Source: Escherichia phage vB_EcoS-EE09. Taken from it: DNA of 44,198 bases. The stretch lies in the sequence record OR756193.1; one strand, given 5' to 3'. The notes below the pieces were generated by a model. The model saw only the letters and a program-made list of their open reading frames with translations, was not told where the DNA came from and did no database searches. Each line of letters begins with the position of its first letter. Positions within the stretch are counted from its first letter, which is position 1. The translations under genes and the position numbers were made by a program. Positions 296 through 44,169 of this stretch are shown here, one piece after another.

Positions 296-760
296 ATGAA
301 AATTTTACAAGAAGAAAAAGCATACTGGGCCGCGCAATGCCTCGAAGCCCGCGAACAGGCCGAACGTGCGAACGCGTTGGCGGACACCAAACAGGCGAGC
401 TATGAAGGCGAGGAGAAGATGCGCAAGGAATTAGAGGAGCGCTTCGAACTGCTATTCGAATTGATGGGGATTATGCAGCGCACCGGATACACCACCAGCG
501 TCGCACTAAACCGCATCACTGCCGACGGGCTGCGTGAGCATTGCAAACGGGCCGAGGAGTACGTGCGTCCGAAGGGTCGCCAGTCTAAGGTTGACCGTAA
601 AGATTTGGTGCTTATGGCGTGGCGCAACCCTACAAATGGCAGCTTCTACCCGGACGCGCGCCCGCTTAGTGTCGAGGAGACAAAGCGCGTGCAACGCATT
701 CTCAAGACCGGCAATAAAATCGCCCTGTATGCGATAGACACCGACCATGCAGAAGAGTGA
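296..760 (+). CDS. hypothetical protein (154 aa)
   Basis: ORF track; ATG immediately after the preceding stop (TAAATG); no motif recognised. Confidence 0.5.
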   Translation: MKILQEEKAYWAAQCLEAREQAERANALADTKQASYEGEEKMRKELEERFELLFELMGIMQRTGYTTSVALNRITADGLREHCKRAEEYVRPKGRQSKVDRKDLVLMAWRNPTNGSFYPDARPLSVEETKRVQRILKTGNKIALYAIDTDHAEE

Positions 761-1232
761 GCAGAAGGATAGCTGGCGCACGCCGCCAGCTTTATTTAAA
801 CCGCTTCGGCGGAAGTACCGATTCCGTTACGATATGGCGGCAAGCGACACCAACCACCTGCTACCGCGTTACTTCACTGCGGAGCACAGCGCGCTCGATG
901 TGGACTGGTCAGAGTTGAAAGGGTGGAAGTGGTGCAACCCACCATATTCCGATCCGCTGCCGTGGGTCGAGTGTGCAGCGCACGGACGCCGTACCGTCAT
1001 GCTACTGAATCAGGACACGTCGACGAAGTGGGCGAAGCTGGCCCGGAAGACTGCAAACCTGATAATTCTTCTGGACTGGCGGATCCGATTCATACATGCT
1101 GTAACCGGTGAAGTCGGGCAGAGCAATAACAAGTGCCAGCAATTGATAATCTTTGACGAAGCGCCGCCCATCGGCAGCGCACAAATTGAAATAATGAGCG
1201 AAGGAGAACTACGTGAATATCTTAATCGTTGA
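747..1232 (+). CDS. dam: DNA N6-adenine methyltransferase, phage Dam type
   Basis: N-terminal W-R-T-P-P motif and catalytic N-P-P-Y tetrapeptide (WCNPPYSD), arrangement typical of the small phage Dam family; no cognate restriction enzyme nearby. Confidence 0.75.
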   Translation: MQKSEQKDSWRTPPALFKPLRRKYRFRYDMAASDTNHLLPRYFTAEHSALDVDWSELKGWKWCNPPYSDPLPWVECAAHGRRTVMLLNQDTSTKWAKLARKTANLIILLDWRIRFIHAVTGEVGQSNNKCQQLIIFDEAPPIGSAQIEIMSEGELREYLNR

Positions 1233-1437
1233 CCGCGACCACGCGGTCGTAGACCGAATGCAAAAAGACTATAACATCGACCCACGCCGCGATCGTGTGG
1301 TGCGCGCGTCTCGCCCCGAATACATCCTGGGCCTTGACCTCACCGGTTGGCTTGTCATGACCCGACGTTGTCATTTCGTGTGCAACTCTTACACCGCGCG
1401 TAGCGCCCGAGCCACCCTTATTGAGAGCCTAAAATGA
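1213..1437 (+). CDS. hypothetical protein (74 aa, GTG start)
   Basis: ORF track; strong RBS AAGGAGA 5 nt upstream of GTG; overlaps the 3' end of dam in another frame. Confidence 0.4.
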   Translation: MNILIVDRDHAVVDRMQKDYNIDPRRDRVVRASRPEYILGLDLTGWLVMTRRCHFVCNSYTARSARATLIESLK

Positions 1438-1904
1438 AATTACTGATTTGCGATTTGGATGGAGTTATTAACGGTTCAAGCGATGCGCGCGCCGACCTGG
1501 TGCCTGGTATAAAAACTAAATCCACCTTTTGGGCGAAGTGGCACAAGGCGCACGTACGCGAAGACCTGAATATGGATATGCTGCCGCTGCTGACCATGTA
1601 CAAAGAGCAAGGCTTCGAGATCGCGTATCTGACCAACCGGCAGCGAGAATGCTGGGACACCACAGCCGAGCAACTGGAAGTATTCCCGAACGGCCGGTTG
1701 TTTATGCGCCACATGCTGGACGACACCCCGCCGCCAGAGTTTAAAGCGTACGCTGTGTTCAAAATGGTCTGCTATGCGGACGTATCGGAACTGGTCATCA
1801 TTGAAGACTGTCCGAAGAACATCGCGGCAATTCGTCGGGCGTGCAGCGATTTAGTCCCTAAAATTTATGCGATAAACGTGGCAAAATTCACTTGCAACCA
1901 ATAG
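1434..1904 (+). CDS. HAD-superfamily phosphatase (nucleotidase or polynucleotide 3'-phosphatase-like)
   Basis: N-terminal HAD motif I LICDLDGV (DxDxV); start overlaps the upstream stop (ATGA). Confidence 0.6.
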   Translation: MKLLICDLDGVINGSSDARADLVPGIKTKSTFWAKWHKAHVREDLNMDMLPLLTMYKEQGFEIAYLTNRQRECWDTTAEQLEVFPNGRLFMRHMLDDTPPPEFKAYAVFKMVCYADVSELVIIEDCPKNIAAIRRACSDLVPKIYAINVAKFTCNQ

Positions 1905-1921
1905 GTTGGTTGCACTATAGT
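1892..1921 (+). promoter_or_regulatory. candidate sigma70-type promoter carrying an inverted pair of the TTGGTTGCA motif
   Basis: -35-like TTGCAA, 18-nt spacer, -10-like TATAGT; the spacer is the inverted repeat TGCAACCAA-tagg-TTGGTTGCA; lies upstream of the CDS at 1966. Confidence 0.4.
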
Positions 1922-1965
1922 AAACGTGTCGGGGCAATACGGCCCCTCACTAAAAGGGTAATACT

Positions 1966-2487
1966 GTGAAAGCATACGAATACTGCAAAAACGCCGCCAC
2001 CACTATGGAACAGCGCGGGAAAGAAAACGGCTATGACAACGCGAAAGAAGAACGCAGCGCTAAACAGATCGCCGCCGTGTTTAACGCGCTTACCGGTCGC
2101 GACCTGACCGAGCAAGAAGCCTGGACTTTCTTGATTTGCCTGAAGCTGGTACGCCAGCACCGCAAGCACCAGGAATATAATATCGTCGACCTGGTAGCGT
2201 ATTCCGCCCTGCTGGGCGAGTCGTACATGACCGTGCATGATGAGATTCAGATCGACACAACGGCAGCACAATTCGACAGCCTAAAAGGTTGGCCCATCGC
2301 CTCCGCCGGGACGTGGCATCCTTCTTCATCTGAGGGCAAGACGGTTAAAGCCGCTAATTTTGGCATCGCAGATCAGGACGTACAGCCTATGGTCGTACTC
2401 ACCGGCGAAGACGGATCTAAAATCCTCATGACGCCGGAAGACTTCCGTAACATGGAAAAAACACTGGTGGCTGGCGCACTTAAATAA
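1966..2487 (+). CDS. hypothetical protein (173 aa, GTG start; alternative ATG near 2005)
   Basis: ORF track; RBS-like AAAAGGG upstream of GTG; no motif recognised. Confidence 0.45.
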   Translation: MKAYEYCKNAATTMEQRGKENGYDNAKEERSAKQIAAVFNALTGRDLTEQEAWTFLICLKLVRQHRKHQEYNIVDLVAYSALLGESYMTVHDEIQIDTTAAQFDSLKGWPIASAGTWHPSSSEGKTVKAANFGIADQDVQPMVVLTGEDGSKILMTPEDFRNMEKTLVAGALK

Positions 2488-2529
2488 TTCTAATCGCGGG
2501 CCGAAGCCCGCATCAATGAGGGCAACACA

Positions 2530-3105
2530 ATGTACGGCGAATACGAAATAACCGGCAAACAATTCCACCTGGCGGCAATGATAGCAAGCATCGAGTTTGA
2601 CCAGTGGCGATACAAGTCTGACGCGTGCAAGCAAAGCCGTCTTGTCGGTGTGCTTGGCGAGATGTTTGCGGGCATGTACCTCGAAGGGCAGGCGGGCGGG
2701 CGTAGCTGTATTCCGCAAGGTTTGTTAATGCGTACCGGCCTGTTTAGCGCTAACACTATCGACCGCGGCGATATTATCATGGTCGGCAAACGCAAGGTAA
2801 AGTCTGGTCCAGACTTCCGCGAACATATGATTGATGCCGTCTGGACCTACGAGGTTAAGGCTACCAGCGGCATCCGTCGCGGACTGGTTGAGGCACGTTG
2901 CGCTCGCGAGTATCTCACTCGTCGAGTTGCCGGTGTTATTCTGGTGGGGGTGTCGTTCGGGCAGCATAGCGCCAGCGGCGTGATTGAGGATATTGCAGAG
3001 CCATACGTGATAGTGAACGACGGGCCTTTAGTGGAAGTGGAAGGAACGGAATACTACGAAAGCCCCCTGGTGCGGCGCAAAATGGACTGGGAAAACTCAA
3101 ACTAA
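2530..3105 (+). CDS. hypothetical protein (191 aa), possible PD-(D/E)xK-like fold
   Basis: ORF track; RBS GAGGG; D...E-V-K arrangement (GDIIMVG ... TYEVKAT) weakly suggestive of a nuclease fold. Confidence 0.5.
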   Translation: MYGEYEITGKQFHLAAMIASIEFDQWRYKSDACKQSRLVGVLGEMFAGMYLEGQAGGRSCIPQGLLMRTGLFSANTIDRGDIIMVGKRKVKSGPDFREHMIDAVWTYEVKATSGIRRGLVEARCAREYLTRRVAGVILVGVSFGQHSASGVIEDIAEPYVIVNDGPLVEVEGTEYYESPLVRRKMDWENSN

Positions 3106-3131
3106 AAAAGGGGCCGCATGGCCCCTTCTAA
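3104..3131. terminator. bidirectional rho-independent terminator between convergent genes
   Basis: Perfect hairpin GGGGCC-gcat-GGCCCC flanked by an A5 run on one side and a T-rich run on the other; sits between the stop at 3105 (+) and the stop at 3132 (-). Confidence 0.75.
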
Positions 3132-4952
3132 TTATTTCTTCAACGCCGCGATCTCGGCTTTCAAATCCTCCACTTCCGCCGACAGGCGTTTACACTCAGC
3201 GATCGCATATTGTGCGCACCCCATCAAGTCCATCACGATAGGGTTAACGTCTACCGACGGACGGTCGCGCGTCTTACCCCCGACGATGGCGTTAGTCTCG
3301 GGGTCCACCTCCACATCGTACGTCTCCTCTCGGTGTTTGATGTATTGAGGCGCAATCTCTTCTGCTTCCTCGGCAATGATGCCGAAGCGGACGCGCTCCT
3401 GCACATCGTCCTTATACACGTAGCGCACCATGCGCATTTGTTCAATGCGTGCAACCGCTTCGGTAACGTCCGCGTCGGTAATATCTTTCTTAAAGTCCCT
3501 TCCTGATGTACCCTGGAGGGCAATAACACCACCAGATGAGGGCCAGTTGACTGTGAAGCCAGTGCCGTCTCCCTTCTCAAAATATTTATAGATCAGGTTA
3601 CTATTGATATTAACCGTATCCCACATCGTGCGGAAGTTACCAGCCGGGACGGTAGCTTTTCCGTTGTTTAGAACGAAAGACAACGCTGAAGCTGTCTCTG
3701 TTGGGCGGACCGTGATATCTCGATGACTCATCATGCCGCTTATCCCCGATCCAGAGATCTCCATAACGGTATCGCGGTACGCGCCCGACGCGTCATATGA
3801 GTGCAACTTAAAATTGCCCGCGGCGTCGTTAATCCCCATGCGCCAGCGTACTTTATCGGCGGAATCAGCCCAACATACGCCACCAAAGCCCGACCCGTTC
3901 TGCTTAAGGATTAATCCATCTTGGGAGTCGCCGTTAGATTTGAATTGGCGGAACTCGGCGACGTTATCGCCGCGCCCCGTACCACCGAATGCAATCGGCA
4001 GCGGCATGGCTTTATTGTTGGCATTATCCCACCCGCCCCAGTCGCCATTTTCCTTAACGAAGATCCATTTATTCTTCGCCGCAGTCCTGATTTGTGTTTC
4101 GCCGCTGGTTATGTTTTGCGTTAGGCGGTCTACACCAATGTTTTCGCGCGCCACAGCCACATCCGCAACATCACTTAAGTTGTTGGCCTTCGCAAGTAGG
4201 TTTTCCGGGTTAACACTATTAGCGAATTGTTCGGCCTCATTGCGAAATCCTTGCGCGGCAGTGCGGGCAGCTTGCGCGTCCTCCTTCGCGGTATTGGCTT
4301 CATCACGAATAACGCCAGTGTCAGTCTTGATCTGATTCGTTTGGTCCTTGATCGCCTGCGTATCTGCCTTAAGTTGAGTGGTCTGGTCCTTGATCGCCTG
4401 CGTATCTGCCTTAAGTTGGCTGGTCTGCGTCTTGATGGTGTTGGCGTCGTTCTTGAAGCCTTCCGCCTCGTTACGGAATCCTTGCGCGGCTGCTTCCGAT
4501 GCGGCGGCTTGTTGTTGCAGGTTGCGCATCTCAACGGGGTCTACTTCCTTCAGCAAAGACGACAGGTAGCCCCACGACATACCCTGCATAACTTGCCCGT
4601 TCGGGAGCGTGACTGTGATTTCTTCAGCATCGCCGAAGATTGCACGCCAGTTGTTTTCATCTGCAATCATCAAGCGCAATGCTTTTTGGGCCTGTACGGT
4701 AACGCCCATCGTTGCCAGCGACATGGTATCGCGCTTAACGCCATCCCACGCAAGGCCGGTTGCCGTCGGGCCGTCGAACGGCAGCACCAGCGTAAGCGCC
4801 GTGTTACTTTCGATTGATGCGATCGCCACGGTGTAAGGCACTTGTCCTACCACCAGCGTTAAGAAGTCGCCAGCTTTAAACGCGGTAAACGTTGTGCCGA
4901 CCCCTACTACCGCCTTGCTGTTGTTCGTTACGGATAGAGTACCCGCTGCCAT
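3132..4952 (-). CDS. tail fibre protein with C-terminal intramolecular chaperone (peptidase S74-like) domain
   Basis: ORF track (track start at 4979 is a TTG inside the ATTGGTTGCA motif; ATG at 4952 with RBS GAGGA preferred); C-terminus has S-G-R-D-F-K-K-D-I followed by VRYVYKDD...RFGIIAEEAEEIAPQYI and a terminal coiled coil, the pattern of auto-cleaving chaperone domains of phage fibres. Confidence 0.75.
   Translation of the reverse strand: MAAGTLSVTNNSKAVVGVGTTFTAFKAGDFLTLVVGQVPYTVAIASIESNTALTLVLPFDGPTATGLAWDGVKRDTMSLATMGVTVQAQKALRLMIADENNWRAIFGDAEEITVTLPNGQVMQGMSWGYLSSLLKEVDPVEMRNLQQQAAASEAAAQGFRNEAEGFKNDANTIKTQTSQLKADTQAIKDQTTQLKADTQAIKDQTNQIKTDTGVIRDEANTAKEDAQAARTAAQGFRNEAEQFANSVNPENLLAKANNLSDVADVAVARENIGVDRLTQNITSGETQIRTAAKNKWIFVKENGDWGGWDNANNKAMPLPIAFGGTGRGDNVAEFRQFKSNGDSQDGLILKQNGSGFGGVCWADSADKVRWRMGINDAAGNFKLHSYDASGAYRDTVMEISGSGISGMMSHRDITVRPTETASALSFVLNNGKATVPAGNFRTMWDTVNINSNLIYKYFEKGDGTGFTVNWPSSGGVIALQGTSGRDFKKDITDADVTEAVARIEQMRMVRYVYKDDVQERVRFGIIAEEAEEIAPQYIKHREETYDVEVDPETNAIVGGKTRDRPSVDVNPIVMDLMGCAQYAIAECKRLSAEVEDLKAEIAALKK
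4341..4424 (-). repeat. two near-identical 42-bp tandem repeats inside the tail fibre gene
   Basis: TGGTCCTTGATCGCCTGCGTATCTGCCTTAAGTTG(A/G)(G/C)TGGTC twice with degenerate flanking copies; encodes 14-aa repeats (TQLKADTQAIKDQT-like). Confidence 0.8.
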
Positions 4953-4968
4953 AGCTAAATCCTCGTAA

Positions 4969-6283: not shown

Positions 6284-9200
6284 TTACCAACTGCCGGTGA
6301 GTTCTCCAATCTGCACGCGGAGAACGCCGTTTCCGTCCTTAACGCTGATTCGCGTGTTAGTCTGTTTCATCCCGCCGCCACTACCAGTGCCCAGGTTGAT
6401 AAACGTTCCGTCTTTCCCTAAGCGCCAGCCGCGCGTGCTGCCGTCGTAGTTATTCGATTGCAGCGTGTCTGTTATCTGCGCGAAGTTGATGGACGCGTTC
6501 TTGATGCGTGCCGTGTCGATATACACCGCGCCACCGTCCACAATAAACGCAGACGACAGCGTCCCATTGGACGGGTGCATGATGTAGAACTGGTCCGCCT
6601 TGAACGCAATACGTGATTTAACCGCGTTGCCAGACGTCACAACGGAAAGCTGCATACCAGCATCATAGTAAGTCCCGTTATACGTCACGCCCGCCTTAAG
6701 GCTATACGTGGCACTACCACCAGCGTGGTTAAACGAGGACGTCATCTTCTGCTCGATAGCGGCGGACTGCTGGCCGAACTGTGTCGCGACCTGGGTCTTA
6801 TATTCCGCCAGCGCTCCCGCCACGTCTGCGGTTGCCGTTTGTACCTGCTGGATGGCGGCTTCCTGTTCCCCGAACTTAGCGGCAACAGTTTGCTGATACT
6901 GGGCGAACGCTTGTTCCTGTGTGCTCTGCGCGGTCTGCAACGTGTGGATCGCAGCTTCCGCGTCATCAAGTCGCGTGCCGATCAACGTCTCCAGTTGAGC
7001 GACCGCCTTGTGGGCGTCCGCCGCCACGTTATACGCGACCGAGATTTCCGCATAAATACCCTTGTACTCGGCGCGGGCGTTGAACAATTGCTGCGCGTCG
7101 GTGAGCATCGCTTCATATATGCCTTGCGGGATCGTGTTAATAGCTTCCTGGAAGCGTTTACCATCCTCGGAAGTCAAGAACTCGTCATCAAGCCCCTTCA
7201 TGTACTCGTCAACTTTGTCACTCACCTGCCCTTCAAACGGGGCCGACCAGTCCGACCGGTTGCCGATTTTATCCACCACACGGGCGCGCAACTGCTGGTA
7301 AATCCCGAACTCCAGCGACGTTTGCGCATACTCTGCCCCAGGGTATGGGACGTTGGACAGGAATTTCCATTCCGTTTCGCCCGTCTTGCGCACTTCAAGC
7401 TCTGTGTAAGAGATATCCGTCGCGGCGTTGTTGTGGTTCCACTTCCATAGGATCTGGTGCAAACCTGAAATCGCGTTGGTGATGATTGGCGCATTAAGCC
7501 CACCGAGACGACCTTCCACCGGCGTGATCGCGGATGATACCCACGGAGATGAAATCTCGCCCATACCGATCGCACGGACGCGTGCCTGGTAGTTACCGGA
7601 GAACACGTTAGGAATGTGCGCGCCATTCGACGCCGTTCGTGGGATATTCACCCAGTCGTTACCCCACTGGATTTCCATATTCTGTAAGCTGGTGCGCCGC
7701 CACTGTATTTCATACACCACGGCGTCCTTCACCGGCGGGAAAACAATATCCACGTTGGTGATTAGCTGGCCTTGCGATGAAATCTGCGACGGGGTTATGG
7801 TCACGGATTCCGGCCCCTTCATCACACCGTCCGGCACTTGCGTAAAGATGCCTGGGTCAAGGCGCGCGCCATTATCAACGGCATCATATTTGCTATCGTT
7901 GTATTCAATCCCGCGCACCGAAAAAGTGCTGGTAGAGTCGTCATATTCCAGGTCGGTGATGCGGAACTTCTGCAACTGGATATCGTTGCCATCAACGCAA
8001 AACGGCTGGTCGGGAATCGGGTCGGCATCCAGTGCAGTTTTTAGCGTAACCTTGTTGCCGTTGACGCTGGCGATCTCGCGAGTCTCCACATTACCGCTAT
8101 CGGTGCGCACCAGGAACTTATCGCCAGGGCGGAACGTGATTTCGCTGTCCGTGTTCAGCACGGTACGCGTTCCGGGGTCCGACATCAGTCGACCGCCACG
8201 AGTCTCGAATCCGCCAGAAATATTAGTATCTGCGATCGCGACTACGCTACCAGGAATAAAGAATAACCCTTCCATGCCAACTTTAAAGCTAACTTGCTGG
8301 TCAAGCTGGTTGGAGATTAGCGCCCAGTGCCCGCGGCGTTGCGCTTCAGATTCACGCGTACAGCCGATCGCCGTGATATCAAGACGGTTAATCTTATGGC
8401 GGCGTACCAGTTCGACACGTTGCCCCGTTGCGATGGCATCTTCATAGTGGTTCTTCGGGTTGCCGTATGCGACCGCGAAAGTTGAATACCGAGTTTTCTG
8501 GCTGCCCGATGCGTAGTCGAATCGACCATCAATTACCGAGGCGTTGGTGATAGTGTGCGACACTGCTGCGACCGGTTGGTCACTGACGATATTCAACATC
8601 TGGTTGCCCCACCAGGTCATTCCGGCGAAGATGGCAGCCAAATCCTTAAGCACGGTCCAGGCATCCGTCTGTGACTGAATGTACATATCATTCTTAAAGC
8701 GGATTTCTCGACCACCGTTGCCGTCGCTGACCAACTGATCGCAGCGCTGCGCAATCTGGTAGAGCGCGTACCGGTTTAACATTTGCGGTTTGATACGCCG
8801 ACCGAGGCCGAAGCGCTCAGTAATACAAATATCGTACCAGTGCCACGCAGGGTTATCCGTCCATGCGCGTTTAAACGTGCCGTCCCAGTCCCCGGAATAG
8901 GTATGGTTAATCGGGTCGTAGTTGTTCGGTATTAGAACTTTGCGGCCTTTGCACTTGATGGACACGCGCGGGATGTTCTGGAACGCTTTGGCGTCGAACT
9001 CCACAAACAACAGCGCGGTTAGCGGGTAACGCAGACGGGCGTCAATAATCTCAGTGATGGACTGCACCCGGATATCATTAACCACTTTCGCCGATGTGGA
9101 GTCCGCCGTTATGCGGTGCACCTCCACTCGCCAGCCGGTATTCACGTTCGGCGGTAATTCGATGCGGTGGTCGCGCTCATACAGCGACATTGTTTTACCA

Positions 9201-11048: not shown

Positions 11049-11050
11049 GG

Positions 11051-12435: not shown

Positions 12436-12471
12436 AAAAAAGCCCCCACGATGGATGTGAGGGCCATTTTA

Positions 12472-27905: not shown

Positions 27906-27967
27906 ATTAATCCACTTCCTGATTATGGGTCCGAGGACAATATACCACGGTCCCGAGTCAAGCAATA

Positions 27968-31530: not shown

Positions 31531-31669
31531 CATGCGTATGAAAAAGTTGATCGCTATCTGCTGTGGCTGCAAACTGCATTTTTCACTCAGCATAATACAA
31601 CCCGCATTGGTTGCCTAGTTCATCCGCGACCGCACTTCGCATCATGCTGCCGTGTATTTTGCAATCCCC

Positions 31670-35843: not shown

Positions 35844-36032
35844 ATGGCTATATTCTTTGTTTTATTTCGTTGCCGTATTACCGGCGACGAGCAACCGGAA
35901 ATTGTTATGAATCAAAACTGGAATTGCTGCTGGATGCAAGCCCGAGGACTGGCGGCTACCATGAACAATGCCGCTAAGCGGGCCAATGTTGAACATGACT
36001 ATTACATTGCTCAATTTACACGGGTGGAATGA
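35844..36032 (+). CDS. hypothetical protein (62 aa)
   Basis: ORF track; start and stop coupled to neighbours (TAAATG, ATGA). Confidence 0.4.
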   Translation: MAIFFVLFRCRITGDEQPEIVMNQNWNCCWMQARGLAATMNNAAKRANVEHDYYIAQFTRVE

Positions 36033-37697: not shown

Positions 37698-37787
37698 CCG
37701 CTTAGGCGCAACCAAGTAGATTAGCAACCAAGCCGAACGGGGTGGCTTCCAATAACCCCGATACATGTGAAAATGAGGAATTGGAAA

Positions 37788-38573
37788 ATGGCTAAAGTCA
37801 ACCTGAAAAATGTGCGTGTATGTTTCCTGAAAATTTGGGAACGTGATACCCCTAAACAGGATGGACAAAAACCGGCATACCGTGCCGTGATTCTTCTTGA
37901 TAAAGAAGATCCGCAGGTGGACAAAGTGGAAGCGGCAGCGCGCGCAGTGCTCACCGACAAGCTGAAATCTGAGAAGAATGCCGATAAGTGGATGGACCGC
38001 CACTACGCCCAGGATTCTAAGGAATGCGCAGTTCGTGACGGTGACGAGCGCGACGAAGTAACCGAAGAATTCGAAGGCATGTTGTACATCAACGCTAAAT
38101 CGTTCAAACAGCCAAACATTCAAACGTCACTCGGCGAGAAGCAGACCGAACAGGGTCTGACCGTAGAAGGCGACGAGATCGAAGGCCAGGAGATCTACTC
38201 CGGTTGTTATTGCAACGTGTCCCTTGATATCTGGGCGTGGAACAATACCAACGGCAAGGGACTCGGTGCTGGCTTGCTGGGTTTACGCTTCCGTGATGAC
38301 GGTGAAGCCTTCGGGGGTGGCGGGTCTTCTTGCTCCGATGAAGACCTGGACAACGACGACGAAGACGAAGCACCGCGCAAGTCCAAAAAGTCAAAACGTC
38401 GTGATGACGATGATGAAGATGACAAGCCGCGCAAGTCCAAGAAATCCAAGCGCCGCGATGACGACGACGATGAGGAAGATGAAAAACCTCGCAAACGTCG
38501 TAAGCCACGCGATGACGAAGATGAGGACGACGACGACGAAGACGAAGCGCCACGTAAACGTCGCCGCCGTTAA
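37788..38573 (+). CDS. DUF2815-like putative ssDNA-binding protein with charged repeat tail
   Basis: ORF track trimmed to the ATG with RBS GAGGA 7 nt upstream; MAKVNLKNVRV... N-terminus; C-terminal ~85 aa of tandem PRKSKKSKRRDDDDED-type repeats. Confidence 0.55.
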   Translation: MAKVNLKNVRVCFLKIWERDTPKQDGQKPAYRAVILLDKEDPQVDKVEAAARAVLTDKLKSEKNADKWMDRHYAQDSKECAVRDGDERDEVTEEFEGMLYINAKSFKQPNIQTSLGEKQTEQGLTVEGDEIEGQEIYSGCYCNVSLDIWAWNNTNGKGLGAGLLGLRFRDDGEAFGGGGSSCSDEDLDNDDEDEAPRKSKKSKRRDDDDEDDKPRKSKKSKRRDDDDDEEDEKPRKRRKPRDDEDEDDDDEDEAPRKRRRR

Positions 38574-38802: not shown

Positions 38803-40958
38803 AAGACTTCGAACGTCTGTTTCTCGACACCGAGACATTTAGCGGGGTGGACCTGAAGAAAGTAGGGGCGTACGCCTACGCAGAGCACCCAACCACCGAG
38901 ATTATGATTTGCACCTACGCCATCGACGAAGGCCGCGTGCAGACATGGGATGCCACTGAATCCCCAACAATGCCGCGTGAACTGCGCAAGGCGCTCCGTC
39001 AGGTATCCCGCAAGAAAGCAAAAATCGTGATGGCTAACGGCCTCCTGTTTGACCGCCTGGTTATCCGTGAGAAGTGGGGAATCGACCTGCCGGTAAGCCA
39101 GATCGAAGATACCATGATTATGGCCTTTCGCCACGCGCTGCCGGGTAGTCTCGATATGCAGTGTCAGGTGCTGGGCGTTGACGCAGAGCACGCGAAGGAT
39201 AAGGCCGGCAAGGCGCTGATCAAACGATTCTGTAAGCCTACCCCTAAGACCTACAAAATACGCCGCTACACGCGCGAGACTCACCCTGAAGAATGGGCCA
39301 AATTTCTGCGATATGCCGCTCTTGATATTATCGCGATGCGTGAGGTCTACTGGCGCATACCGGACTGGGGTAATACTCCGAAGGAAGACGAGATACTGCT
39401 TATTGACCAGTTGATCAACGACCGCGGCTTCTATGTGGACGTTGACCTGGCGAACGCCGCGATCAAAGCGGTGCAGGCGCATAAGGAAGAATTGAAGGAG
39501 GAAGCCTGGGAGCGATTTGGCGGTAAGCTGACCGGCAATGACTTCCTGCCAATCCTGCGTGATATCGCCCCAGCGTTCACAATCCACAACGCGCAGAAAT
39601 CCACACTTAACGACCTGCTTGAAGACCCGGACTTCCCCGACGAAGGCAAAGCGCTTATCGAAATGCGCCTCGGTGCGTCATCAACGGCATCGACTAAGTA
39701 CAATCCGCTAGTTAACGGCTTATCCGCAGACGGTCGCCGCCGTGGGTGTCTTCAGTATGGTGGTGCAAAGCGCACGCTGCGCTGGGCCGGTAAAGGCTTC
39801 CAGCCGCAAAACCTGGCACGCGGCGAGTATAGCGACGATCACGAAGGGAAGATTAAGCGCCGCGAAGGCGAGAGCGACGTTGCTTTTTGGGTCCGGTCGC
39901 ACATGCTCACCAACGGCATCAATTCCCTGTTACGCGGGACCGCGCACTGGGCGTATGACATATCTAAGCTAACAGCCTCGACCGTTCGCGGGTGCATTAT
40001 CCCGGCTAAGGGCAAGAAGTTTGTCGTAGCGGACTACTCCAACGTGGAAGGGCGTGGACTTGCCTGGATCGCGGGCGAGAAAACAGCGCTCATGGTGTTT
40101 AAGGCCGGTCGCGATATCTATTGTGAGACTGCCGGTAAGATGTTCGGCCTGGACCCGGACTACATTAAAGCCAACCGCAAGGACTTGCGCCAGATCGGTA
40201 AGGCGTGCGAATTGGGGCTGGGCTATGGTGGCGGCGTCGCGGCGTTCTTGCAGTTCGCTAAAAACCTGGGACTCGACCTTTACACTATGGCGGACGTGAT
40301 GAAAGGCACGTTCCCGGATCACATTTGGGCGGCGGCGAAGCGCGGTTATGAGTACGCCCGCATTAACGAAGCGAAACGCCCACCGAAGCCGGGTAAGAAG
40401 GACGAGCGCCCGACTTACATACTGCCGAAAAACGTATGGCTTACTTGTGACGCGATCAAACGTATGTGGCGTGAGGCTCACCCGAAGACGGTAGCCTTTT
40501 GGGCCGAGCTTGAGGACGCGGTGTTGTGTGCAATCCGCAATCCGGGCAAAGCATACTGGGCTGGTGCGAACGTTCACCCGGACGGTGGCATCGCGCTGTC
40601 TGTCACTACCGAGATCGACGAAGACACCGGCAAGAAGCGCACCAGCACACGCATTAAATATCAGGGCGAGAATCAGACGACGCGCCAGTGGGGCTTCCAG
40701 TATACCTACGGCGGCAAACTGACGGAGAACATCGTACAGGCGTTATGCCGTGATATTCTCGCCTGGTCAATGCCTGGCGTTGAAGCTGCGGGCTATGAAA
40801 TCGTTCTATCGGTGCATGATGAATTGATCACAGAAGTGCCGGACACCGACGACTACACGACCGAGGAGCTTTGCGCGCTGATGTGCGACCTGCCTATTTG
40901 GGCAAAAGGCTTCCCACTTGCCGCGGAAGGCGACATCATGTACAGGTACAGGAAATAA
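38799..40958 (+). CDS. family A DNA polymerase with 3'-5' exonuclease domain (719 aa)
   Basis: Exo I motif LDTETFS near the N-terminus; polymerase motifs R-Q-I-G-K-A-C-E-L-G-L-G-Y-G-G-G (motif B-like) and V-H-D-E-L (motif C). Confidence 0.85.
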   Translation: MKDFERLFLDTETFSGVDLKKVGAYAYAEHPTTEIMICTYAIDEGRVQTWDATESPTMPRELRKALRQVSRKKAKIVMANGLLFDRLVIREKWGIDLPVSQIEDTMIMAFRHALPGSLDMQCQVLGVDAEHAKDKAGKALIKRFCKPTPKTYKIRRYTRETHPEEWAKFLRYAALDIIAMREVYWRIPDWGNTPKEDEILLIDQLINDRGFYVDVDLANAAIKAVQAHKEELKEEAWERFGGKLTGNDFLPILRDIAPAFTIHNAQKSTLNDLLEDPDFPDEGKALIEMRLGASSTASTKYNPLVNGLSADGRRRGCLQYGGAKRTLRWAGKGFQPQNLARGEYSDDHEGKIKRREGESDVAFWVRSHMLTNGINSLLRGTAHWAYDISKLTASTVRGCIIPAKGKKFVVADYSNVEGRGLAWIAGEKTALMVFKAGRDIYCETAGKMFGLDPDYIKANRKDLRQIGKACELGLGYGGGVAAFLQFAKNLGLDLYTMADVMKGTFPDHIWAAAKRGYEYARINEAKRPPKPGKKDERPTYILPKNVWLTCDAIKRMWREAHPKTVAFWAELEDAVLCAIRNPGKAYWAGANVHPDGGIALSVTTEIDEDTGKKRTSTRIKYQGENQTTRQWGFQYTYGGKLTENIVQALCRDILAWSMPGVEAAGYEIVLSVHDELITEVPDTDDYTTEELCALMCDLPIWAKGFPLAAEGDIMYRYRK

Positions 40959-41236
40959 TGACACCAGAAGGCAAGATTCAAAGTCACCTGATGAGACGGG
41001 TGAAAGATGTTGGCGGATTCTGCCGAAAACTGGCATGGGAGGGGCGCGCAGGTGCGCCCGACCTGATTATTATCATCAACGGCAAAATAGTGTTCGTCGA
41101 AGTGAAGCGCCCCGGAGGAAAACCGAAGCCGCACCAGGTACGTGAACATGAGCGAATGGCCCGCCGCGGTGCGGACGTTCGTGTTATCGACAACATAGCC
41201 GACTGCGATTTATTGGTTGCTGAATTGGTCGCGTAG
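40958..41236 (+). CDS. VRR-NUC domain nuclease (92 aa)
   Basis: ORF track trimmed to the ATG overlapping the polymerase stop (TAATG); PD-(D/E)xK core DLIIIINGKIVFVEVK. Confidence 0.6.
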   Translation: MTPEGKIQSHLMRRVKDVGGFCRKLAWEGRAGAPDLIIIINGKIVFVEVKRPGGKPKPHQVREHERMARRGADVRVIDNIADCDLLVAELVA

Positions 41237-41276
41237 CGGTATAGTGTGCAGGTTGGCACTATCGAGGATTTTAGAA

Positions 41277-41450
41277 ATGATTGAAGAAAAACGTTGTAGT
41301 AATTGCGGATGCATCAAGCCGCTATCCCAGTTCCACAAGTACACCGGCAAGACTGCGCGAAGTCCAGACGGTCATCGGGCCGAGTGCAAGTCGTGCCGCA
41401 ATAAGAAAGAGCGCGAACGGCAGCGCCGCTATCGCGCAGAACAAGAATAA
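41277..41450 (+). CDS. small zinc-ribbon protein (57 aa)
   Basis: RBS GAGGA 8 nt upstream of ATG; C-x2-C...C-x2-C pattern (CSNCGC ... ECKSC) with a basic C-terminus. Confidence 0.45.
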   Translation: MIEEKRCSNCGCIKPLSQFHKYTGKTARSPDGHRAECKSCRNKKERERQRRYRAEQE

Positions 41451-41457
41451 TCAATAC

Positions 41458-41480
41458 GGCGGGCTTGTCCCGCCATTTTT
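41458..41480 (+). terminator. rho-independent terminator
   Basis: GGCGGG-cttgt-CCCGCC hairpin followed by ATTTTT. Confidence 0.6.
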
Positions 41481-41494
41481 AGAGAGACATGACG

Positions 41495-41713
41495 ATGAAA
41501 GAACACTACCGACTCACCAAGCTGGGCGAATGTAAGCCGGGCGATCGCGTATGGTTTATTGCGGGCATGAATGACCCGCTGCCGTTGACGGTATGCTGGC
41601 AAAAATTTAAGAGCTTCCGGGCTACCGGTGTCCACGTCGGACACGCCACCAACTACGACGCCACAAAGAGGAACTGGGATAGTGAAACTGAAGTCTGGAA
41701 AAAGGCGGAATAA
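41495..41713 (+). CDS. hypothetical protein (72 aa)
   Basis: RBS AGAGAG 8 nt upstream of the second ATG of the track ORF. Confidence 0.45.
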   Translation: MKEHYRLTKLGECKPGDRVWFIAGMNDPLPLTVCWQKFKSFRATGVHVGHATNYDATKRNWDSETEVWKKAE

Positions 41714-41717
41714 AGAG

Positions 41718-43142
41718 ATGGCACGATTCCGACGCCGCGAATATCAGAAGTTGATAACCGCGTTCATCCTCAAGCATAAGCGATGCAATATATGGGCGAC
41801 AATGGGGTCGGGTAAAACCGGCGCGACTATGTGGGCGCTGAACAAAATGTTCCAGACTGGCGTCCTGTCCCATCATGAGGACCGCGTACTGGTGCTGGCC
41901 CCGCTGCGTGTTGCGTCCGGTACGTGGCCCCCGGAGCAAGAAAAATGGCGATTCCCCGCCTTGCTGGTCGTAGACGGCACCGGACCGGAGAAGGACCGGA
42001 TTGCAGCGCTTGAGAGCGACGCTAACGTGGTTTGTGTTAACTACGATGTGGTTGAGTGGCTGGTTGACTATTACGGCGATGCGTGGCCCTTTACGGTCGT
42101 TGTTGCCGATGAATCCACTAAGCTGAAAGGCTACCGCAGTAAGCAGGGTAGTAAGCGCGCACGCGCACTGGCGGCGATCGCACATAAGCACGTCAAGCGC
42201 TGGATTAATCTGACCGGCACACCAGCGCCAAACGGGCTGAAAGACTTATGGGGTCAGACGTGGTTTGTCGACGGTGGCGAACGACTCGGCAGTAGTTATA
42301 AGGCATTTACCGATCGCTGGTTCATTAGCAAGCCGGTTAAGCCTGGCAGCTTCACTATGCAGCACGCCCCGCTAAAGAACTCCGAGAAAGAAATACAACA
42401 ACGCCTGTCTGACGTATCCCTCACCGTTGACGCGGCTGAATACTTCGGATGTGACAAGCCAATATATACGCCGGTTGTTGTGGATCTGCCGAAGAAAGCC
42501 CGCAAGATTTACGACCAGTTTGAAAGCGAGCTATTTGCCGAACTGGAAAGCGGAACAGTGGAAGCGGCGAACGCGGCATCGAAGACTATTAAGTGCCTTC
42601 AGCTTGCTTCGGGGGCCGTGTATAAAGTCGACGAAGACGGCGAGCGCACCGACGAATGGGTGAAGATTCACGACGCCAAACTGGACGCGCTGGAAAGTAT
42701 CGTGGAGGAGTTGAACGGCGCGCCGTTGCTCGTTGCGTATCAGTATAAGCATGACCTGGCACGTCTTAAGAAGAAATTTCCGTACGGCGTCGCGTTGGGT
42801 AAGGGTAAGCAGGGCAATAAGGATATGGAAGCGTGGAACAGAGGCGAGATCCCCATCATGTTTGCACACCCGGCATCGGCGGGCCACGGCCTTAACTTGC
42901 AGGACGGCGGTCATCACCTGGCAATCTTCTCCGATACCTGGAACTTTGAGCACTTTTCGCAGATCGTTGAACGTATCGGGCCGGTTCGCCAGATGCAGGC
43001 CGGACACCCTCGACCGGTATTCGTCTACATTATCCAGGCGCGCGGAACACTGGACGAACTGGTCGCCGAGCGTCGCGACAGTAAGCGAGATATACAGGAC
43101 GACTTGATGGAATACATGAAAGCTAAAAAGGCGCGCAAATGA
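41718..43142 (+). CDS. SNF2/DEAD-like superfamily 2 helicase (474 aa)
   Basis: ORF track trimmed to the ATG after the upstream stop; Walker A-like ATMGSGKTGA and DExx box VVADEST. Confidence 0.75.
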   Translation: MARFRRREYQKLITAFILKHKRCNIWATMGSGKTGATMWALNKMFQTGVLSHHEDRVLVLAPLRVASGTWPPEQEKWRFPALLVVDGTGPEKDRIAALESDANVVCVNYDVVEWLVDYYGDAWPFTVVVADESTKLKGYRSKQGSKRARALAAIAHKHVKRWINLTGTPAPNGLKDLWGQTWFVDGGERLGSSYKAFTDRWFISKPVKPGSFTMQHAPLKNSEKEIQQRLSDVSLTVDAAEYFGCDKPIYTPVVVDLPKKARKIYDQFESELFAELESGTVEAANAASKTIKCLQLASGAVYKVDEDGERTDEWVKIHDAKLDALESIVEELNGAPLLVAYQYKHDLARLKKKFPYGVALGKGKQGNKDMEAWNRGEIPIMFAHPASAGHGLNLQDGGHHLAIFSDTWNFEHFSQIVERIGPVRQMQAGHPRPVFVYIIQARGTLDELVAERRDSKRDIQDDLMEYMKAKKARK

Positions 43143-43849
43143 CTATTGCTAAAATGACAATTTGGTCATTGTTTGACGGCAGCGGCTTGATGATTGAGCG
43201 TGCTGCCGAGATGGGGCATAAGTGTTATTGCTTCAACTACTCCGAAGCCGACCACGGGTCTTACCTTGACTACCGGATTTATGGTCGCGGAATCCGGTAT
43301 CGCAATGAGTTTATCGATCTGGACTTTGTAGACCGTGCGATGAATGGCGATTTCGGTACGCCAGATATCATCTACGCATTCCCGCCGTGTACTGATCTGG
43401 CGGTGAGCGGTGCGCCAGCTTTCCCGCGCAAACGCGCCCGCGACCCGGCCTTCCAGCTTAAGGCGGTGCGCACCGCGAAGATCGCAGCTTACCTGGGTGA
43501 CTTCTTCGAAGTGCCATATATGATTGAGAATCCGCGCAGTGTGCTTTCCACCCAGTGGCGCAAGCCGGATCACTCATTCGACCCGTGGGAGTATGGGGGA
43601 TATCTGCCGGAGGATGACGTACACCCGCTCTTCCCGGAATACATCAACGCCCGCGATTCATATCCGAAGCTGACCTGCTTATGGACCGGCAACGGCTTCC
43701 GTATGCCAGAGAAGAAACCTGTTTTCGTTGAAAAAGGGTACTCGAAGCAGTATAGTCGCCTCGGAGGCAAATCAGCCCGCACAAAATTAATCCGGTCGCT
43801 CACCCCGCGCGGCTTCGCGATAGCGGTCAATGAGGAAAATTTAAAATGA
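43139..43849 (+). CDS. putative DNA (cytosine-5) methyltransferase-like protein (236 aa)
   Basis: Motif I-like LFDGSG, P-C dipeptide in AFPPCTD (motif IV-like), E-N-P in MIENPRSV (motif VI-like); short for a complete C5 methyltransferase. Confidence 0.4.
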   Translation: MTIAKMTIWSLFDGSGLMIERAAEMGHKCYCFNYSEADHGSYLDYRIYGRGIRYRNEFIDLDFVDRAMNGDFGTPDIIYAFPPCTDLAVSGAPAFPRKRARDPAFQLKAVRTAKIAAYLGDFFEVPYMIENPRSVLSTQWRKPDHSFDPWEYGGYLPEDDVHPLFPEYINARDSYPKLTCLWTGNGFRMPEKKPVFVEKGYSKQYSRLGGKSARTKLIRSLTPRGFAIAVNEENLK

Positions 43850-44169
43850 ATACTACATTCGAAGCCATTGATTTTTCGGTTGCAATGACTAACCAGTTAT
43901 TCTCCTACGACAGCAAAACCGGCGTCATTCGTCTGAAGTCCACCGGCTGCAAAATTGGCAACCTCAACACTGCCGATGGCGGCACGCGCATCGAATGCAA
44001 CGGCAAAACTCTATCGGGCGCACGCGTGGCGTGGATTATCGCGACCGGCAATACAATTCCTCCAGGCTACGCCGTTGTGTGCCGCCAGCGAACACCAGGC
44101 CACTACGGCAACCGAATCAGCAATCTGTATCTGGTAGACGTTGCACGCGACCCAAATTTTTATTCGTAA
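43846..44169 (+). CDS. HNH-endonuclease-like protein, possibly degenerate (107 aa)
   Basis: N-terminal F-S-Y-D-x-x-T-G and C-terminal G-N-R-I-S-N-L resemble phage HNH proteins, but the expected metal-binding His positions are not evident. Confidence 0.4.
   Translation: MNTTFEAIDFSVAMTNQLFSYDSKTGVIRLKSTGCKIGNLNTADGGTRIECNGKTLSGARVAWIIATGNTIPPGYAVVCRQRTPGHYGNRISNLYLVDVARDPNFYS

What the first reader, a model, noticed from the sequence alone, without database searches (positions are those of the whole stretch)
747..44169. Two orphan DNA methyltransferase-like genes and a degenerate HNH-like gene, no restriction partner
A Dam-type N6-adenine methyltransferase (747-1232, NPPY motif) and a short C5-cytosine-methyltransferase-like ORF (43139-43849, with FDGSG, PPC and ENP motifs) sit at opposite ends of the window, without any adjacent restriction endonuclease. 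The next gene (43846-44169) has an HNH-like frame (FSYD..TG ... GNRISNL) but lacks obvious catalytic histidines. Orphan methyltransferases in lytic phages usually serve as anti-restriction self-methylation. The 236-aa C5-like protein is unusually small and may perform a different modification or be non-catalytic.
Basis: partly seen in the sequence, partly recalled or inferred. Interest (0 to 1): 0.45.

Follow-up and report, generated by a model that had tools for sequence, protein, structure and literature searches.

The report
Known phage methyltransferases plus inactivated HNH gene
The window is a complete genome of a well-known E. coli phage group (Dhillonvirus), whose two stand-alone DNA methyltransferases and neighbouring HNH-type gene lacking its catalytic residues are conserved, already-annotated core genes, so the finding is real but ordinary.

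Summary
All three ORFs and the quoted motifs are present at the stated coordinates. The window is a complete, circularly permuted Dhillonvirus (HK578-like coliphage) genome. Its two ends are contiguous in relatives, so the methyltransferases lie about 0.9 kb apart in one replication-module cluster, not at opposite ends.

- **747-1232:** a T1/VT2-type Dam (Pfam PF05869, E=2e-36, NPPY motif).
- **43846-44169:** an I-HmuI/HNH_3-fold protein whose Asp-His dyad is replaced by Val-Cys. It is near-universal in the genus, under strong purifying selection (dN/dS 0.07), and linked to the SNF2 helicase rather than to the methyltransferase. That fits a domesticated gene, not a decaying or mobile one.

No restriction enzyme was found in 60 ORFs. 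The anti-restriction role and the target sites (GATC, CCWGG) remain inferred. Novelty is low.

The parts
41628..43142 (+). SNF2-family DNA helicase, first gene of the cluster. Its stop overlaps the start of the C5-methyltransferase gene (ATGA).
   Evidence: Pfam SNF2-rel_dom 1.2e-10 and PHROG 62 'DNA helicase' 2.7e-156. The overlap is seen in the sequence.
43139..43849 (+). Minimal (236 aa) orphan C5-cytosine DNA methyltransferase ('Dcm-like'). Motif I is F12-D-G14-S-G16, the catalytic Cys is C84 (PPC), and motif VI is E130-N-P. An alternative start at M6 (43154) would give the 231-aa form annotated in HK578, WF5505 and Sloth.
43846..44169 (+). 107-aa I-HmuI/HNH_3-fold protein lacking the Asp-His catalytic dyad (V77-C78 in its place). 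The N88 and N93-L94 positions are kept. It is translationally coupled to the methyltransferase gene (ATGA overlap).
44171..44197 (+). Two direct copies of TTGGTTGCAT (44171-44180 and 44188-44197), between the HNH-like stop codon and the terminator.
   Evidence: (12 copies in the window at <=1 mismatch against 3.4 expected).
6..29 (+). Intrinsic-terminator-like hairpin followed by a T-run. It lies just past the artificial window junction and ends the helicase/methyltransferase/HNH-like transcription unit.
   Evidence: The same element is annotated as a terminator after the HNH-like gene in phage WF5505. Junction continuity is shown.
53..295 (+). 80-aa accessory ORF of unknown function. It is absent from HK578 and WF5505.
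   Evidence: PHROG 18961, unknown function. Presence and absence across relatives.
296..760 (+). 154-aa accessory ORF of unknown function. PHROGs labels it 'DNA ligase', but there is no Pfam or NCBIfam support. It is absent from HK578.
   Evidence: The Sloth record notes 'Possible DNA ligase but no evidence'.
747..1232 (+). 161-aa orphan N6-adenine DNA methyltransferase of the phage T1/VT2 'Dam' family, with the catalytic motif N64-P-P-Y67.
   Evidence: Pfam PF05869 2e-36. PHROG 111 2.9e-55. PADLOC 'orphan methyltransferase' 3.3e-11. TIGR01712 at 89 bits, below its 97.05-bit cut-off. dN/dS 0.08.
1434..1904 (+). HAD-family phosphatase (polynucleotide-kinase-phosphatase-like). This is a downstream neighbour that recurs with the helicase/HNH-like pair in related phages.
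   Evidence: Pfam Acid_phosphat_B 4.7e-5 and PHROG 415 1.2e-35. Locus L012 carries a HAD_PNKP gene in the same relative position.

Best explanation
The window is a complete, circularly permuted genome of an Escherichia coli Dhillonvirus (HK578-like siphovirus). Its replication module carries one gene string: SNF2 helicase, a minimal C5-cytosine methyltransferase, an HNH-fold protein without the catalytic dyad, a terminator, two dispensable small ORFs, and a T1-type Dam.

Both methyltransferases are solitary SAM-dependent enzymes, expressed with the replication genes, that methylate phage DNA as it is made.
- Dam uses its NPPY motif to methylate adenine N6.
- The C5 enzyme uses Cys84 to attack cytosine C6, with Glu130 (motif VI) assisting, and transfers methyl to C5. 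It has only about 28 residues where classical enzymes carry a large target-recognition domain.

The most likely benefit is pre-emptive protection against restriction enzymes that are blocked by these marks. That would make the phage independent of how completely host Dam/Dcm can methylate fast-replicating DNA. The known cost is that this C5 enzyme family is sensed by retron Ec86/Eco1.

The HNH-like protein is a domesticated homing-endonuclease domain. It probably no longer cuts by the canonical mechanism, and it works with the helicase/replication module as a DNA-binding factor rather than with the methyltransferase.

Shown here: identity, fold, motif conservation, purifying selection, synteny and the absence of a restriction enzyme. 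Taken from the literature: 5mC formation by the K42 enzyme. Inferred: target sites (GATC, CCWGG), the anti-restriction role, and the function of the HNH-like protein.
For: - Genome identity: 94-96% nucleotide identity to about 159 Dhillonvirus records. Junction continuity shown.
- Dam: PF05869 2e-36.
- Core-gene status: about 154, 157 and 157 records carry the C5, HNH-like and Dam genes at >=80% identity. dN/dS is 0.04, 0.07 and 0.08.
- Operon structure: ATGA start/stop overlaps and a terminator.
- HNH-like protein: loss of the dyad, I-HmuI fold, and placement directly after the SNF2 helicase in lineages with no methyltransferase between them or none at all.
- No restriction enzyme found.
- GATC (167 sites) and CCWGG (153 sites) are not strongly avoided.
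Against: - No methylation data exist for this phage. The target sites are carried over from relatives at <=54% (C5) and <=40% (Dam) identity.
- The window protein itself gives no Pfam PF00145 hit at E<0.1. It lacks a canonical motif VIII (QxRxR) and a recognisable motif X (GN).
- K176 of the K42 enzyme is Leu178 here.
- In the K42 study the CCWGG site was assumed from host Dcm and tested only by mutating the retron stem-loop. msDNA from the empty-vector MG1655 control showed little 5mC. If MG1655 has active host Dcm, as I recall but the preprint does not say, the phage enzyme may have a different specificity.
- BASEL phenotyping found Dhillonvirus comparatively sensitive to the type I and II restriction systems tested.
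- Nothing tests whether the HNH-like protein binds DNA or retains non-canonical nuclease activity. A conserved His85 in a 'GHY' insert could in principle substitute.
Confidence: 0.75

Rival explanations
1. The 236-aa C5-like protein is non-catalytic, or it installs a different modification. An example would be carboxymethyl transfer from carboxy-SAM, as done by the CmoX enzymes.
Against: The K42 enzyme increased 5mC on msDNA by LC-MS, and this depended on C82/E128/K175/K176. The catalytic Cys and Glu are invariant and dN/dS is 0.04. The window has no phage cmoA or amide-ligase gene among the Pfam families listed, whereas CmoX genes typically sit beside CmoA/CmoY. 8yf3 scores no better than ordinary C5-methyltransferases.
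Confidence: 0.05
2. The 107-aa gene is an active, mobile HNH homing endonuclease, as many GenBank records annotate it.
For: PHROG 99 'HNH endonuclease' 2e-16. I-HmuI-like fold. Relatives carry a weak I-HmuI NUMOD-like match. Distant homologues are bona fide HNH_3/AP2 endonucleases.
Against: The Asp-His dyad and the upstream His are replaced by V77-C78 and A59 across the whole clade. The gene sits at the same position in 157 of about 160 Dhillonvirus records, which is not the patchy distribution expected of a mobile element. It is conserved in synteny with the helicase across genera. dN/dS is 0.07 with dS>1. The Pfam HNH_3 score is below threshold.
Confidence: 0.1
3. The methyltransferases do not serve anti-restriction. 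Instead they serve phage-internal functions such as timing of replication or packaging, escape from MutH-directed mismatch repair on hemimethylated DNA, or gene regulation.
For: They sit inside the replication module and are co-transcribed with a helicase. Dhillonvirus was comparatively sensitive to the type I and II restriction systems tested, and for the related Drexlerviridae no simple link between methyltransferase genes and restriction resistance was found. The usual E. coli hosts already supply Dam and Dcm (my own knowledge).
Against: There is no evidence for any such role in this phage group. The restriction systems named in the passages I read (EcoKI, EcoRI) are not ones I would expect GATC or CCWGG methylation to block, so they do not test the anti-restriction idea. 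Both families are spread horizontally over many unrelated phage groups, which is typical of counter-defence cargo.
Confidence: 0.15
4. The methyltransferases belong to a cryptic restriction-modification or toxin-like module whose nuclease partner is unrecognised. Candidates would be the HNH-like protein, the VRR-NUC protein or the DUF2800 PD-(D/E)XK protein.
For: Three nuclease-fold genes are present: the HNH-like gene, VRR-NUC at 40871-41236 and DUF2800/PDDEXK at 36029-37462.
Against: No restriction-enzyme model matches. The HNH-like protein lacks its catalytic dyad and also occurs without any methyltransferase. The DUF2800/PDDEXK gene sits two genes upstream of an Enc34-type ssDNA-binding protein gene. 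I read it and the VRR-NUC gene next to the SNF2 helicase as replication and recombination genes.
Confidence: 0.03

Closest known systems
Dcm-like C5 cytosine methyltransferase of Drexlerviridae phage KarlJaspers/K42 (bas06_0055), the trigger of retron Ec86/Eco1
   Same: Same length (236 aa, 711 bp), 54% identity over the full length, and the same motif I, PPC cysteine, ENP glutamate and conserved lysine. Same PHROG family. It is also encoded near an SNF2-type helicase in a small siphovirus.
   Different: K176 is Leu178 here. The gene order relative to the helicase is reversed, and KarlJaspers has no HNH-like neighbour. Activity, target site and retron triggering have not been tested for the Dhillonvirus protein.
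Classical DNA C5-methyltransferases (Pfam PF00145: M.HhaI, M.HaeIII, E. coli Dcm, DNMT3A/3B catalytic domains)
   Different: It is about 90-100 residues shorter than M.HhaI. Only about 28 residues lie between the motif VIII strand and the C-terminal helices, where the target-recognition domain normally sits. PCQ reads PCT, ENV reads ENP, and there is no canonical QxRxR or GN motif. This sequence itself gives no Pfam hit. The nearest structural relatives are DNMT3A/3B, which I recall as having small recognition domains.
Phage T1 / VT2-Sakai type Dam (Pfam PF05869, TIGR01712 phage N-6-adenine-methyltransferase)
   Same: Strong PF05869 match, the (D/N)PPY catalytic motif, small size and orphan status in a phage.
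   Different: Identity to members outside the genus is only <=40% (VT2-Sakai 36.7%, KarlJaspers 31%). The TIGR01712 equivalog cut-off is not reached, so GATC specificity cannot be assumed.
I-HmuI and HNH_3 (PF13392) homing endonucleases of phages
   Different: The catalytic Asp-His is replaced by Val-Cys and the upstream His by Ala. There is a two-residue 'GH' insertion and no C-terminal AP2/NUMOD DNA-binding extension. The gene is fixed in the genus rather than sporadic.
Edwardsiella phage eiAU (Eiauvirus) module: helicase, gp31, C5-methyltransferase, Dam
   Same: Same gene string with an orthologous HNH-like gp31 (40% identity) and a PF05869 Dam.
   Different: In eiAU the HNH-like gene directly follows the helicase. 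The C5 enzyme is a classical 330-aa PF00145 protein placed after it, not a minimal enzyme inserted before it.

Membership tests
DNA C5-cytosine methyltransferase (PF00145) | Motif I FxGxG (AdoMet binding) | tested here: met
   F12-D-G14-S-G16. F12, G14, S15 and G16 are invariant in 33 homologues.
DNA C5-cytosine methyltransferase (PF00145) | Motif IV Pro-Cys with the catalytic cysteine | tested here: met
   P82-P83-C84 is invariant. It aligns with C82 of the mutagenised K42/KarlJaspers enzyme. Gln of PCQ is replaced by Thr.
DNA C5-cytosine methyltransferase (PF00145) | Motif VI Glu-Asn-Val | tested here: met
   E130-N131-P132 is invariant. E130 corresponds to E128 of K42. Val is replaced by Pro.
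DNA C5-cytosine methyltransferase (PF00145) | Motif VIII QxRxR and motif X GN in canonical form | tested here: not met
   Neither string is present. The conserved blocks are Y175-P-K177-x-T179-x-x-W182 and L208-G-G-K211...R219-S-L-T-P-R224. Whether these are structurally equivalent to motifs VIII-X could not be resolved without a superposition.
DNA C5-cytosine methyltransferase (PF00145) | Pfam model score above the gathering threshold | tested here: not met
   The window protein gives no hit at E<0.1. Homologues P0023, P0026 and P0058 (62-63% identical) score 28.5, 24.7 and 25.4 bits against a 22-bit cut-off over motifs I-IV, so homology is established transitively.
DNA C5-cytosine methyltransferase (PF00145) | C5-methyltransferase fold | tested here: met
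DNA C5-cytosine methyltransferase (PF00145) | Formation of 5-methylcytosine in DNA | not testable with these tools
   Reported for the K42 Dcm (LC-MS on msDNA). The window protein is 54% identical to the corresponding KarlJaspers Bas06 protein. No data exist for this phage.
Phage Dam N6-adenine methyltransferase (PF05869 / TIGR01712) | Pfam PF05869 above threshold | tested here: met
   125.7 bits against 28.1, E=2e-36, residues 3-142.
Phage Dam N6-adenine methyltransferase (PF05869 / TIGR01712) | (D/N)PPY catalytic motif | tested here: met
   N64-P-P-Y67 in ...KWCNPPYSD....
Phage Dam N6-adenine methyltransferase (PF05869 / TIGR01712) | NCBIfam equivalog TIGR01712 cut-off | tested here: not met
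   89 bits against a 97.05-bit cut-off. It is a family member, but not at equivalog level.
Phage Dam N6-adenine methyltransferase (PF05869 / TIGR01712) | GATC specificity | not testable with these tools
   Only <=40% identical to members outside the genus. GATC occurs 167 times and is not strongly depleted.
HNH endonuclease (HNH_3, PF13392; I-HmuI-like) | Pfam HNH_3 above threshold | tested here: not met
   13.2 bits against a 24.8-bit cut-off, E=0.07. PHROG 99 does match at 2e-16.
HNH endonuclease (HNH_3, PF13392; I-HmuI-like) | Catalytic Asp-His dyad (general base and metal ligand) | tested here: not met
   These positions align to V77-C78. The upstream 'aHR' His aligns to A59. The same holds in all Dhillonvirus, eiAU, P0126, P0127 and P0128 homologues.
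HNH endonuclease (HNH_3, PF13392; I-HmuI-like) | HNH-type (I-HmuI-like) fold | tested here: met
HNH endonuclease (HNH_3, PF13392; I-HmuI-like) | Sporadic, mobile distribution expected of homing endonucleases | tested here: not met
   157 of 162 matching phage records carry it at >=80% identity. Every Dhillonvirus locus I examined has it at the same position, directly after the C5-methyltransferase gene. dN/dS is 0.07.
Restriction-modification system | A cognate restriction endonuclease encoded with the methyltransferase | tested here: not met
   No restriction-enzyme family matched among 60 ORFs in PADLOC at E<=1e-6 or in Pfam at E<=1e-5. None is annotated in Oekolampad. PADLOC labels the Dam an 'orphan methyltransferase'.

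The most novel reading that the evidence does not exclude
The 107-aa protein is an exapted homing-endonuclease domain. On this reading, an I-HmuI/HNH_3 fold lost its Asp-His dyad and was fixed as a partner of the phage SNF2 helicase across several siphovirus genera (Dhillonvirus, Eiauvirus and uncultured relatives). It would act as a sequence- or structure-specific DNA-binding or loading factor, or as a nuclease with a rebuilt Cys78/His85 active site. Separately, the minimal C5-methyltransferase, with almost no recognition domain, may have a specificity other than the assumed CCWGG.
Probability: 0.35. Interest if true: 0.35.

Novelty: already known. Interest (0 to 1): 0.15.

Why it matters
It matters little as a discovery. 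These genes are annotated in the same way in curated relatives: Oekolampad lists a 'Dcm-like C5 cytosine methyltransferase', a 'putative homing endonuclease' and a 'Dam-like N6-adenine methyltransferase'. The C5 family already has a published activity and a published role as a retron Ec86/Eco1 trigger.

The practical value is in annotation:
- The small C5 enzyme should be treated as a real methyltransferase and a likely retron liability, which is relevant to choosing therapeutic Dhillonvirus phages.
- The 'HNH endonuclease' label on the 107-aa gene is probably misleading.
- The target specificities of both enzymes are still unmeasured.

Tried and rejected
- **Sequence searches of the PDB.** The C5-like protein gave nothing significant as a single sequence or as a 33-sequence profile; M.HaeIII reached only E=0.54 over motifs I-IV. 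The Dam and the HNH-like protein also gave nothing. Fold searches were needed instead.
- **Profile-sequence comparison.** hhalign of the C5 family profile against the classical eiAU C5-methyltransferase was uninformative (probability 0.86%), so motifs IX/X could not be mapped.
- **NCBIfam.** It gave no name for the C5-like protein, the HNH-like protein or the small ORFs.
- **Word-indexed homologue search for the HNH-like protein.** It found only Dhillonvirus clusters. The exhaustive HMMER search was needed to reach 16 clusters.
- **HNH-like protein as an obligate partner or specificity subunit of the minimal methyltransferase.** This was suggested by the translational coupling. I rejected it because homologues follow the SNF2 helicase with no methyltransferase present (L011, L012), and because K42 Dcm acts alone when expressed from a plasmid.
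- **Motif-avoidance statistics for GATC and CCWGG**. These are not discriminating.
- **dN/dS for the helicase against L006.** This was invalid because of an alignment gap and was ignored.
- **Literature searches.** I found no methylome or restriction-digest data for Dhillonvirus DNA in the held library.

Full report
**What the window is.** Megablast of both ends of the window against GenBank phages gives about 159 records. Almost all are Escherichia or Shigella Dhillonvirus (HK578-like siphoviruses) of 43-46 kb, at 94-96% identity for 41000-44198 and about 90% for 1-3200. In phage mckay the two window ends map to adjacent coordinates (6499-9681 and 9682-12820). Window end joined to window start also aligns without a break to phage Oekolampad. 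The 44,198-base window is therefore a whole, circularly permuted genome. The 'opposite ends' layout comes from where the assembly was opened.

The real order is as follows:
- SNF2 helicase (41628-43142)
- C5-like methyltransferase (43139-43849)
- HNH-like gene (43846-44169)
- two TTGGTTGCAT repeats (44171-44197)
- terminator hairpin (6-29)
- two small ORFs (53-295 and 296-760)
- Dam (747-1232)
- a 74-aa ORF (1213-1437)
- HAD phosphatase (1434-1904)

The helicase, methyltransferase and HNH-like genes are joined by ATGA stop/start overlaps. The string ends in an intrinsic-terminator-like hairpin, which is annotated as a terminator in phage WF5505. The two small ORFs are dispensable. HK578 has neither, so its HNH-like gene is followed directly by Dam, and WF5505 has one.

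**Dam.** The 161-aa product matches Pfam PF05869 (phage Dam) at 125.7 bits, E=2e-36. It also matches PHROG 111 at 2.9e-55 and PADLOC's 'orphan methyltransferase' model. It carries N64-P-P-Y67. It falls short of the TIGR01712 equivalog cut-off, at 89 against 97.05 bits. Relatives occur in 1746 phage records, but outside the genus identity is at most about 40% (VT2-Sakai 36.7%, T1-like phages about 30%). Membership of the family is secure. GATC specificity is only an inference from characterised members, which I recall from the phage T1 and VT-2 literature and did not test here.

**The 236-aa C5-like protein.** Four lines of evidence say it is a genuine C5-cytosine methyltransferase.

1. It belongs to PHROG 757 (E=7e-84). 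This is a very large family: 2873 clusters in the protein collection and 1511 phage records spanning Dhillonvirus, Drexlerviridae, Vequintavirinae, T4-like, and Klebsiella, Salmonella, Vibrio and Campylobacter phages. Nearly all listed members are 225-250 aa, so the small size is normal for the family.
2. Homologues at 62-63% identity (P0023, P0026, P0058) pass Pfam's PF00145 threshold over motifs I-IV.
3. In a 33-sequence alignment, F12, G14, S15, G16 (motif I), P82-P83-C84 (motif IV) and E130-N131-P132 (motif VI) are invariant. dN/dS across six Dhillonviruses is 0.04.

The model leaves only about 28 residues (185-212) between the motif VIII-like strand and the C-terminal helices, where classical enzymes carry their target-recognition domain. 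Canonical QxRxR and GN motifs are absent.

**Published experimental anchor.** A preprint on retron Ec86 (bioRxiv 10.1101/2023.08.16.553469) isolated escape mutants of Drexlerviridae phage K42 (KarlJaspers-like). All of them disrupted a 711-bp 'Dcm' gene.
- Expressing that gene was toxic only when the retron was present.
- LC-MS showed increased 5mC on the retron msDNA.
- A C82A/E128A/K175A/K176A mutant was inactive.

I fetched KarlJaspers (Bas06) and compared its 236-aa Dcm-like protein with the window protein. They are 54% identical over the full length (E=2e-86), with C82/E128/K175 aligned to C84/E130/K177 and K176 aligned to L178. The later Eco2 paper cites this mechanism as established.

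The suggestion that the protein is non-catalytic or performs different chemistry is therefore not supported. The carboxymethyl-transferase alternative (CmoX, PMC12783734) is unlikely. No cmoA or amide-ligase gene appears among the Pfam families listed for the window, and the homologue yields 5mC.

One caveat concerns the target site. In that study CCWGG was assumed from host Dcm and supported only by mutating the msDNA stem-loop. msDNA from the empty-vector MG1655 control carried little 5mC. If MG1655 has active host Dcm, as I recall but the preprint does not state, the phage enzyme may have a different specificity. The true specificity of this near-TRD-less family remains open.

**The HNH-like gene.** The 107-aa product matches PHROG 99 'HNH endonuclease' at 2e-16, but Pfam HNH_3 only at 13.2 bits against a 24.8-bit cut-off.
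- An exhaustive HMMER search of 1.84 billion representatives found just 16 clusters at E<=1e-3. The more distant ones are bona fide HNH_3 or HNH_3+AP2 endonucleases.
- In the alignment, true HNH_3 proteins show aHR ... (I/L)DH ... DNR..NLR. The Dhillonvirus proteins and their nearest relatives (Edwardsiella phage eiAU gp31, P0126, P0127, P0128) show G(A/P)R ... x-C ... GHY(G/A)(N/Q)R..NL. The Asp-His dyad has become Val77-Cys78 and the upstream His has become Ala59. N88 and N93-L94 are retained, and a two-residue insertion introduces a conserved His85.

So 'HNH-like but lacking the catalytic histidines' is correct.

It is not a decaying remnant or a mobile element, however.
- It is present at >=80% identity in 157 of 162 matching phage records.
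- In every Dhillonvirus locus I examined it sits at the same position, directly after the C5-methyltransferase gene.
- dN/dS is 0.07 with dS above 1 to the most divergent genome.

Context in relatives shows what it travels with.
- In eiAU the order is helicase, gp31, a classical 330-aa PF00145 methyltransferase, then Dam.
- In contig L011 the homologue starts at the stop codon of the SNF2 helicase.
- In L012 the order is SNF2 helicase, DUF7167, the HNH-like gene, two small ORFs, then a HAD phosphatase, with no methyltransferase at all.

The conserved partner is therefore the helicase. The minimal C5-methyltransferase looks like a cassette inserted between the two in the Dhillonvirus lineage. 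I conclude that the protein is a domesticated HNH domain of the replication module, probably without canonical nuclease activity. Its actual function is unknown and inferred only from this context.

**No restriction partner.** Sixty ORFs covering the genome were scanned.
- Pfam families at E<=1e-5 are structural, lysis and replication functions (25 of 33 are listed). They also include Dam, DUF2800/PD-(D/E)XK, an Enc34-type SSB, VRR-NUC and Nmad5.
- PADLOC at E<=1e-6 returns only helicase-like models, a PD-(D/E)XK model and methyltransferase models, with no restriction enzyme.
- The curated Oekolampad annotation lists none.

Both enzymes are thus orphan methyltransferases.

**Function.** The anti-restriction reading is the most economical, but nothing here demonstrates it.
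- GATC (167 sites) and CCWGG (153 sites) are not strongly avoided (observed/expected 0.79 and 0.97 by a Markov model). That is compatible with protection but is not diagnostic.
- The BASEL study found Dhillonvirus and Drexlerviridae sensitive to type I and II restriction systems compared with Queuovirinae. For Drexlerviridae it found no simple link between methyltransferase genes and resistance (PMC8594841).
- I would not expect GATC or CCWGG methylation to block the systems named in the passages I read (EcoKI, EcoRI), so this neither supports nor refutes the idea.
- A phage-internal role in replication, mismatch-repair avoidance or packaging remains a live rival.
- The one experimentally supported biological consequence for this C5 family is negative for the phage: activation of retron Ec86/Eco1.

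**Verdict.** The features are conserved core genes of a well-sampled phage genus and are annotated in the same way in curated records. A 100% identical C5-like protein sequence is encoded in Dhillonvirus EcoIv6a_Kente. The only modestly new points are these:
- The 'HNH endonuclease' has lost its catalytic dyad, is under strong purifying selection, and is linked to the helicase.
- The minimal C5 enzyme's target site has never been measured directly.

Interest is low.

Noticed in passing
window 1-44198 (junction 44198|1): The window is a complete, circularly permuted Dhillonvirus genome. Its end and start are contiguous in relatives, and a terminator hairpin (6-29) lies just past the artificial junction.
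   Followed up: yes
window 44171-44197, 1892-1915, 20820-20842, 31483-31616, 30776, 34811, 4970: The motif TTGGTTGCA(N) occurs 12 times at <=1 mismatch (3.4 expected; none of 100 shuffles reached 12). Eight of the 12 copies lie in close pairs or a triplet, direct or inverted, and the pair I checked lies in intergenic DNA. It contains a -35-like TTGCA(T/A), and one copy overlaps a sigma-70-like promoter match at 1892-1921. It is probably a phage promoter or operator element.
   Followed up: partly
window 20837-21625 (+): A 263-aa protein with a strong Nmad5 match ('nucleotide modification associated domain 5', PF18757, E=3.7e-54). It is encoded against the direction of the surrounding structural genes, with two TTGGTTGCA copies at its start. 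A 2025 paper (PMC11846954) reports that a single Lys-to-Glu change in Dhillonvirus nmad5 lets the phage escape the Tmn defence system, while deleting the gene does not. Its biochemical function is unknown, and it may be a third DNA-modification-related gene in this genome.
   Followed up: partly
window 53-295 and 296-760 (+): Two small ORFs between the HNH-like gene and Dam are accessory. Both are absent from HK578, and the first is absent from WF5505. They diverge far more than their neighbours (62-84% against 86-98% amino-acid identity). The PHROG label 'DNA ligase' for the second has no Pfam or NCBIfam support.
   Followed up: partly
L010 (Edwardsiella phage eiAU) 2352-5882; L011; L012 1513-4682: The SNF2 helicase followed by the HNH-like (gp31-type) gene is a conserved pair across genera. 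eiAU adds a classical 330-aa C5-methyltransferase plus Dam after it. The uncultured relative L012 has no methyltransferase at all, but keeps the downstream HAD phosphatase.
   Followed up: yes
window 40871-41236 (+) and 41628-43142 (+): A VRR-NUC nuclease-domain protein (Pfam 9.2e-6; PHROG 93 'endonuclease') lies just upstream of the SNF2 helicase. Relatives annotate it variously as Holliday junction resolvase, restriction endonuclease or VRR-NUC protein. It matches no restriction-enzyme model.
   Followed up: partly
window 36029-37462 (+) and 37767-38573 (+): A DUF2800/PD-(D/E)XK nuclease (E=6.4e-66) lies two genes upstream of an Enc34-type ssDNA-binding protein (E=1.2e-31). This looks like a recombination pair.
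   Followed up: no
window 26763-27965 (-): A 399-aa calcineurin-like metallophosphoesterase (PHROG 704 'DNA repair exonuclease', E=8e-162) lies next to the terminase small-subunit gene. Its homologue is a 'hypothetical protein' in Oekolampad.
   Followed up: no
phage record OR420686.2 (Shigella phage 1b), hit H109: In this Dhillonvirus only the last 57 residues of the C5-methyltransferase match (24% coverage, 91% identity). This suggests a natural truncation or disruption of the gene in at least one isolate.
   Followed up: no
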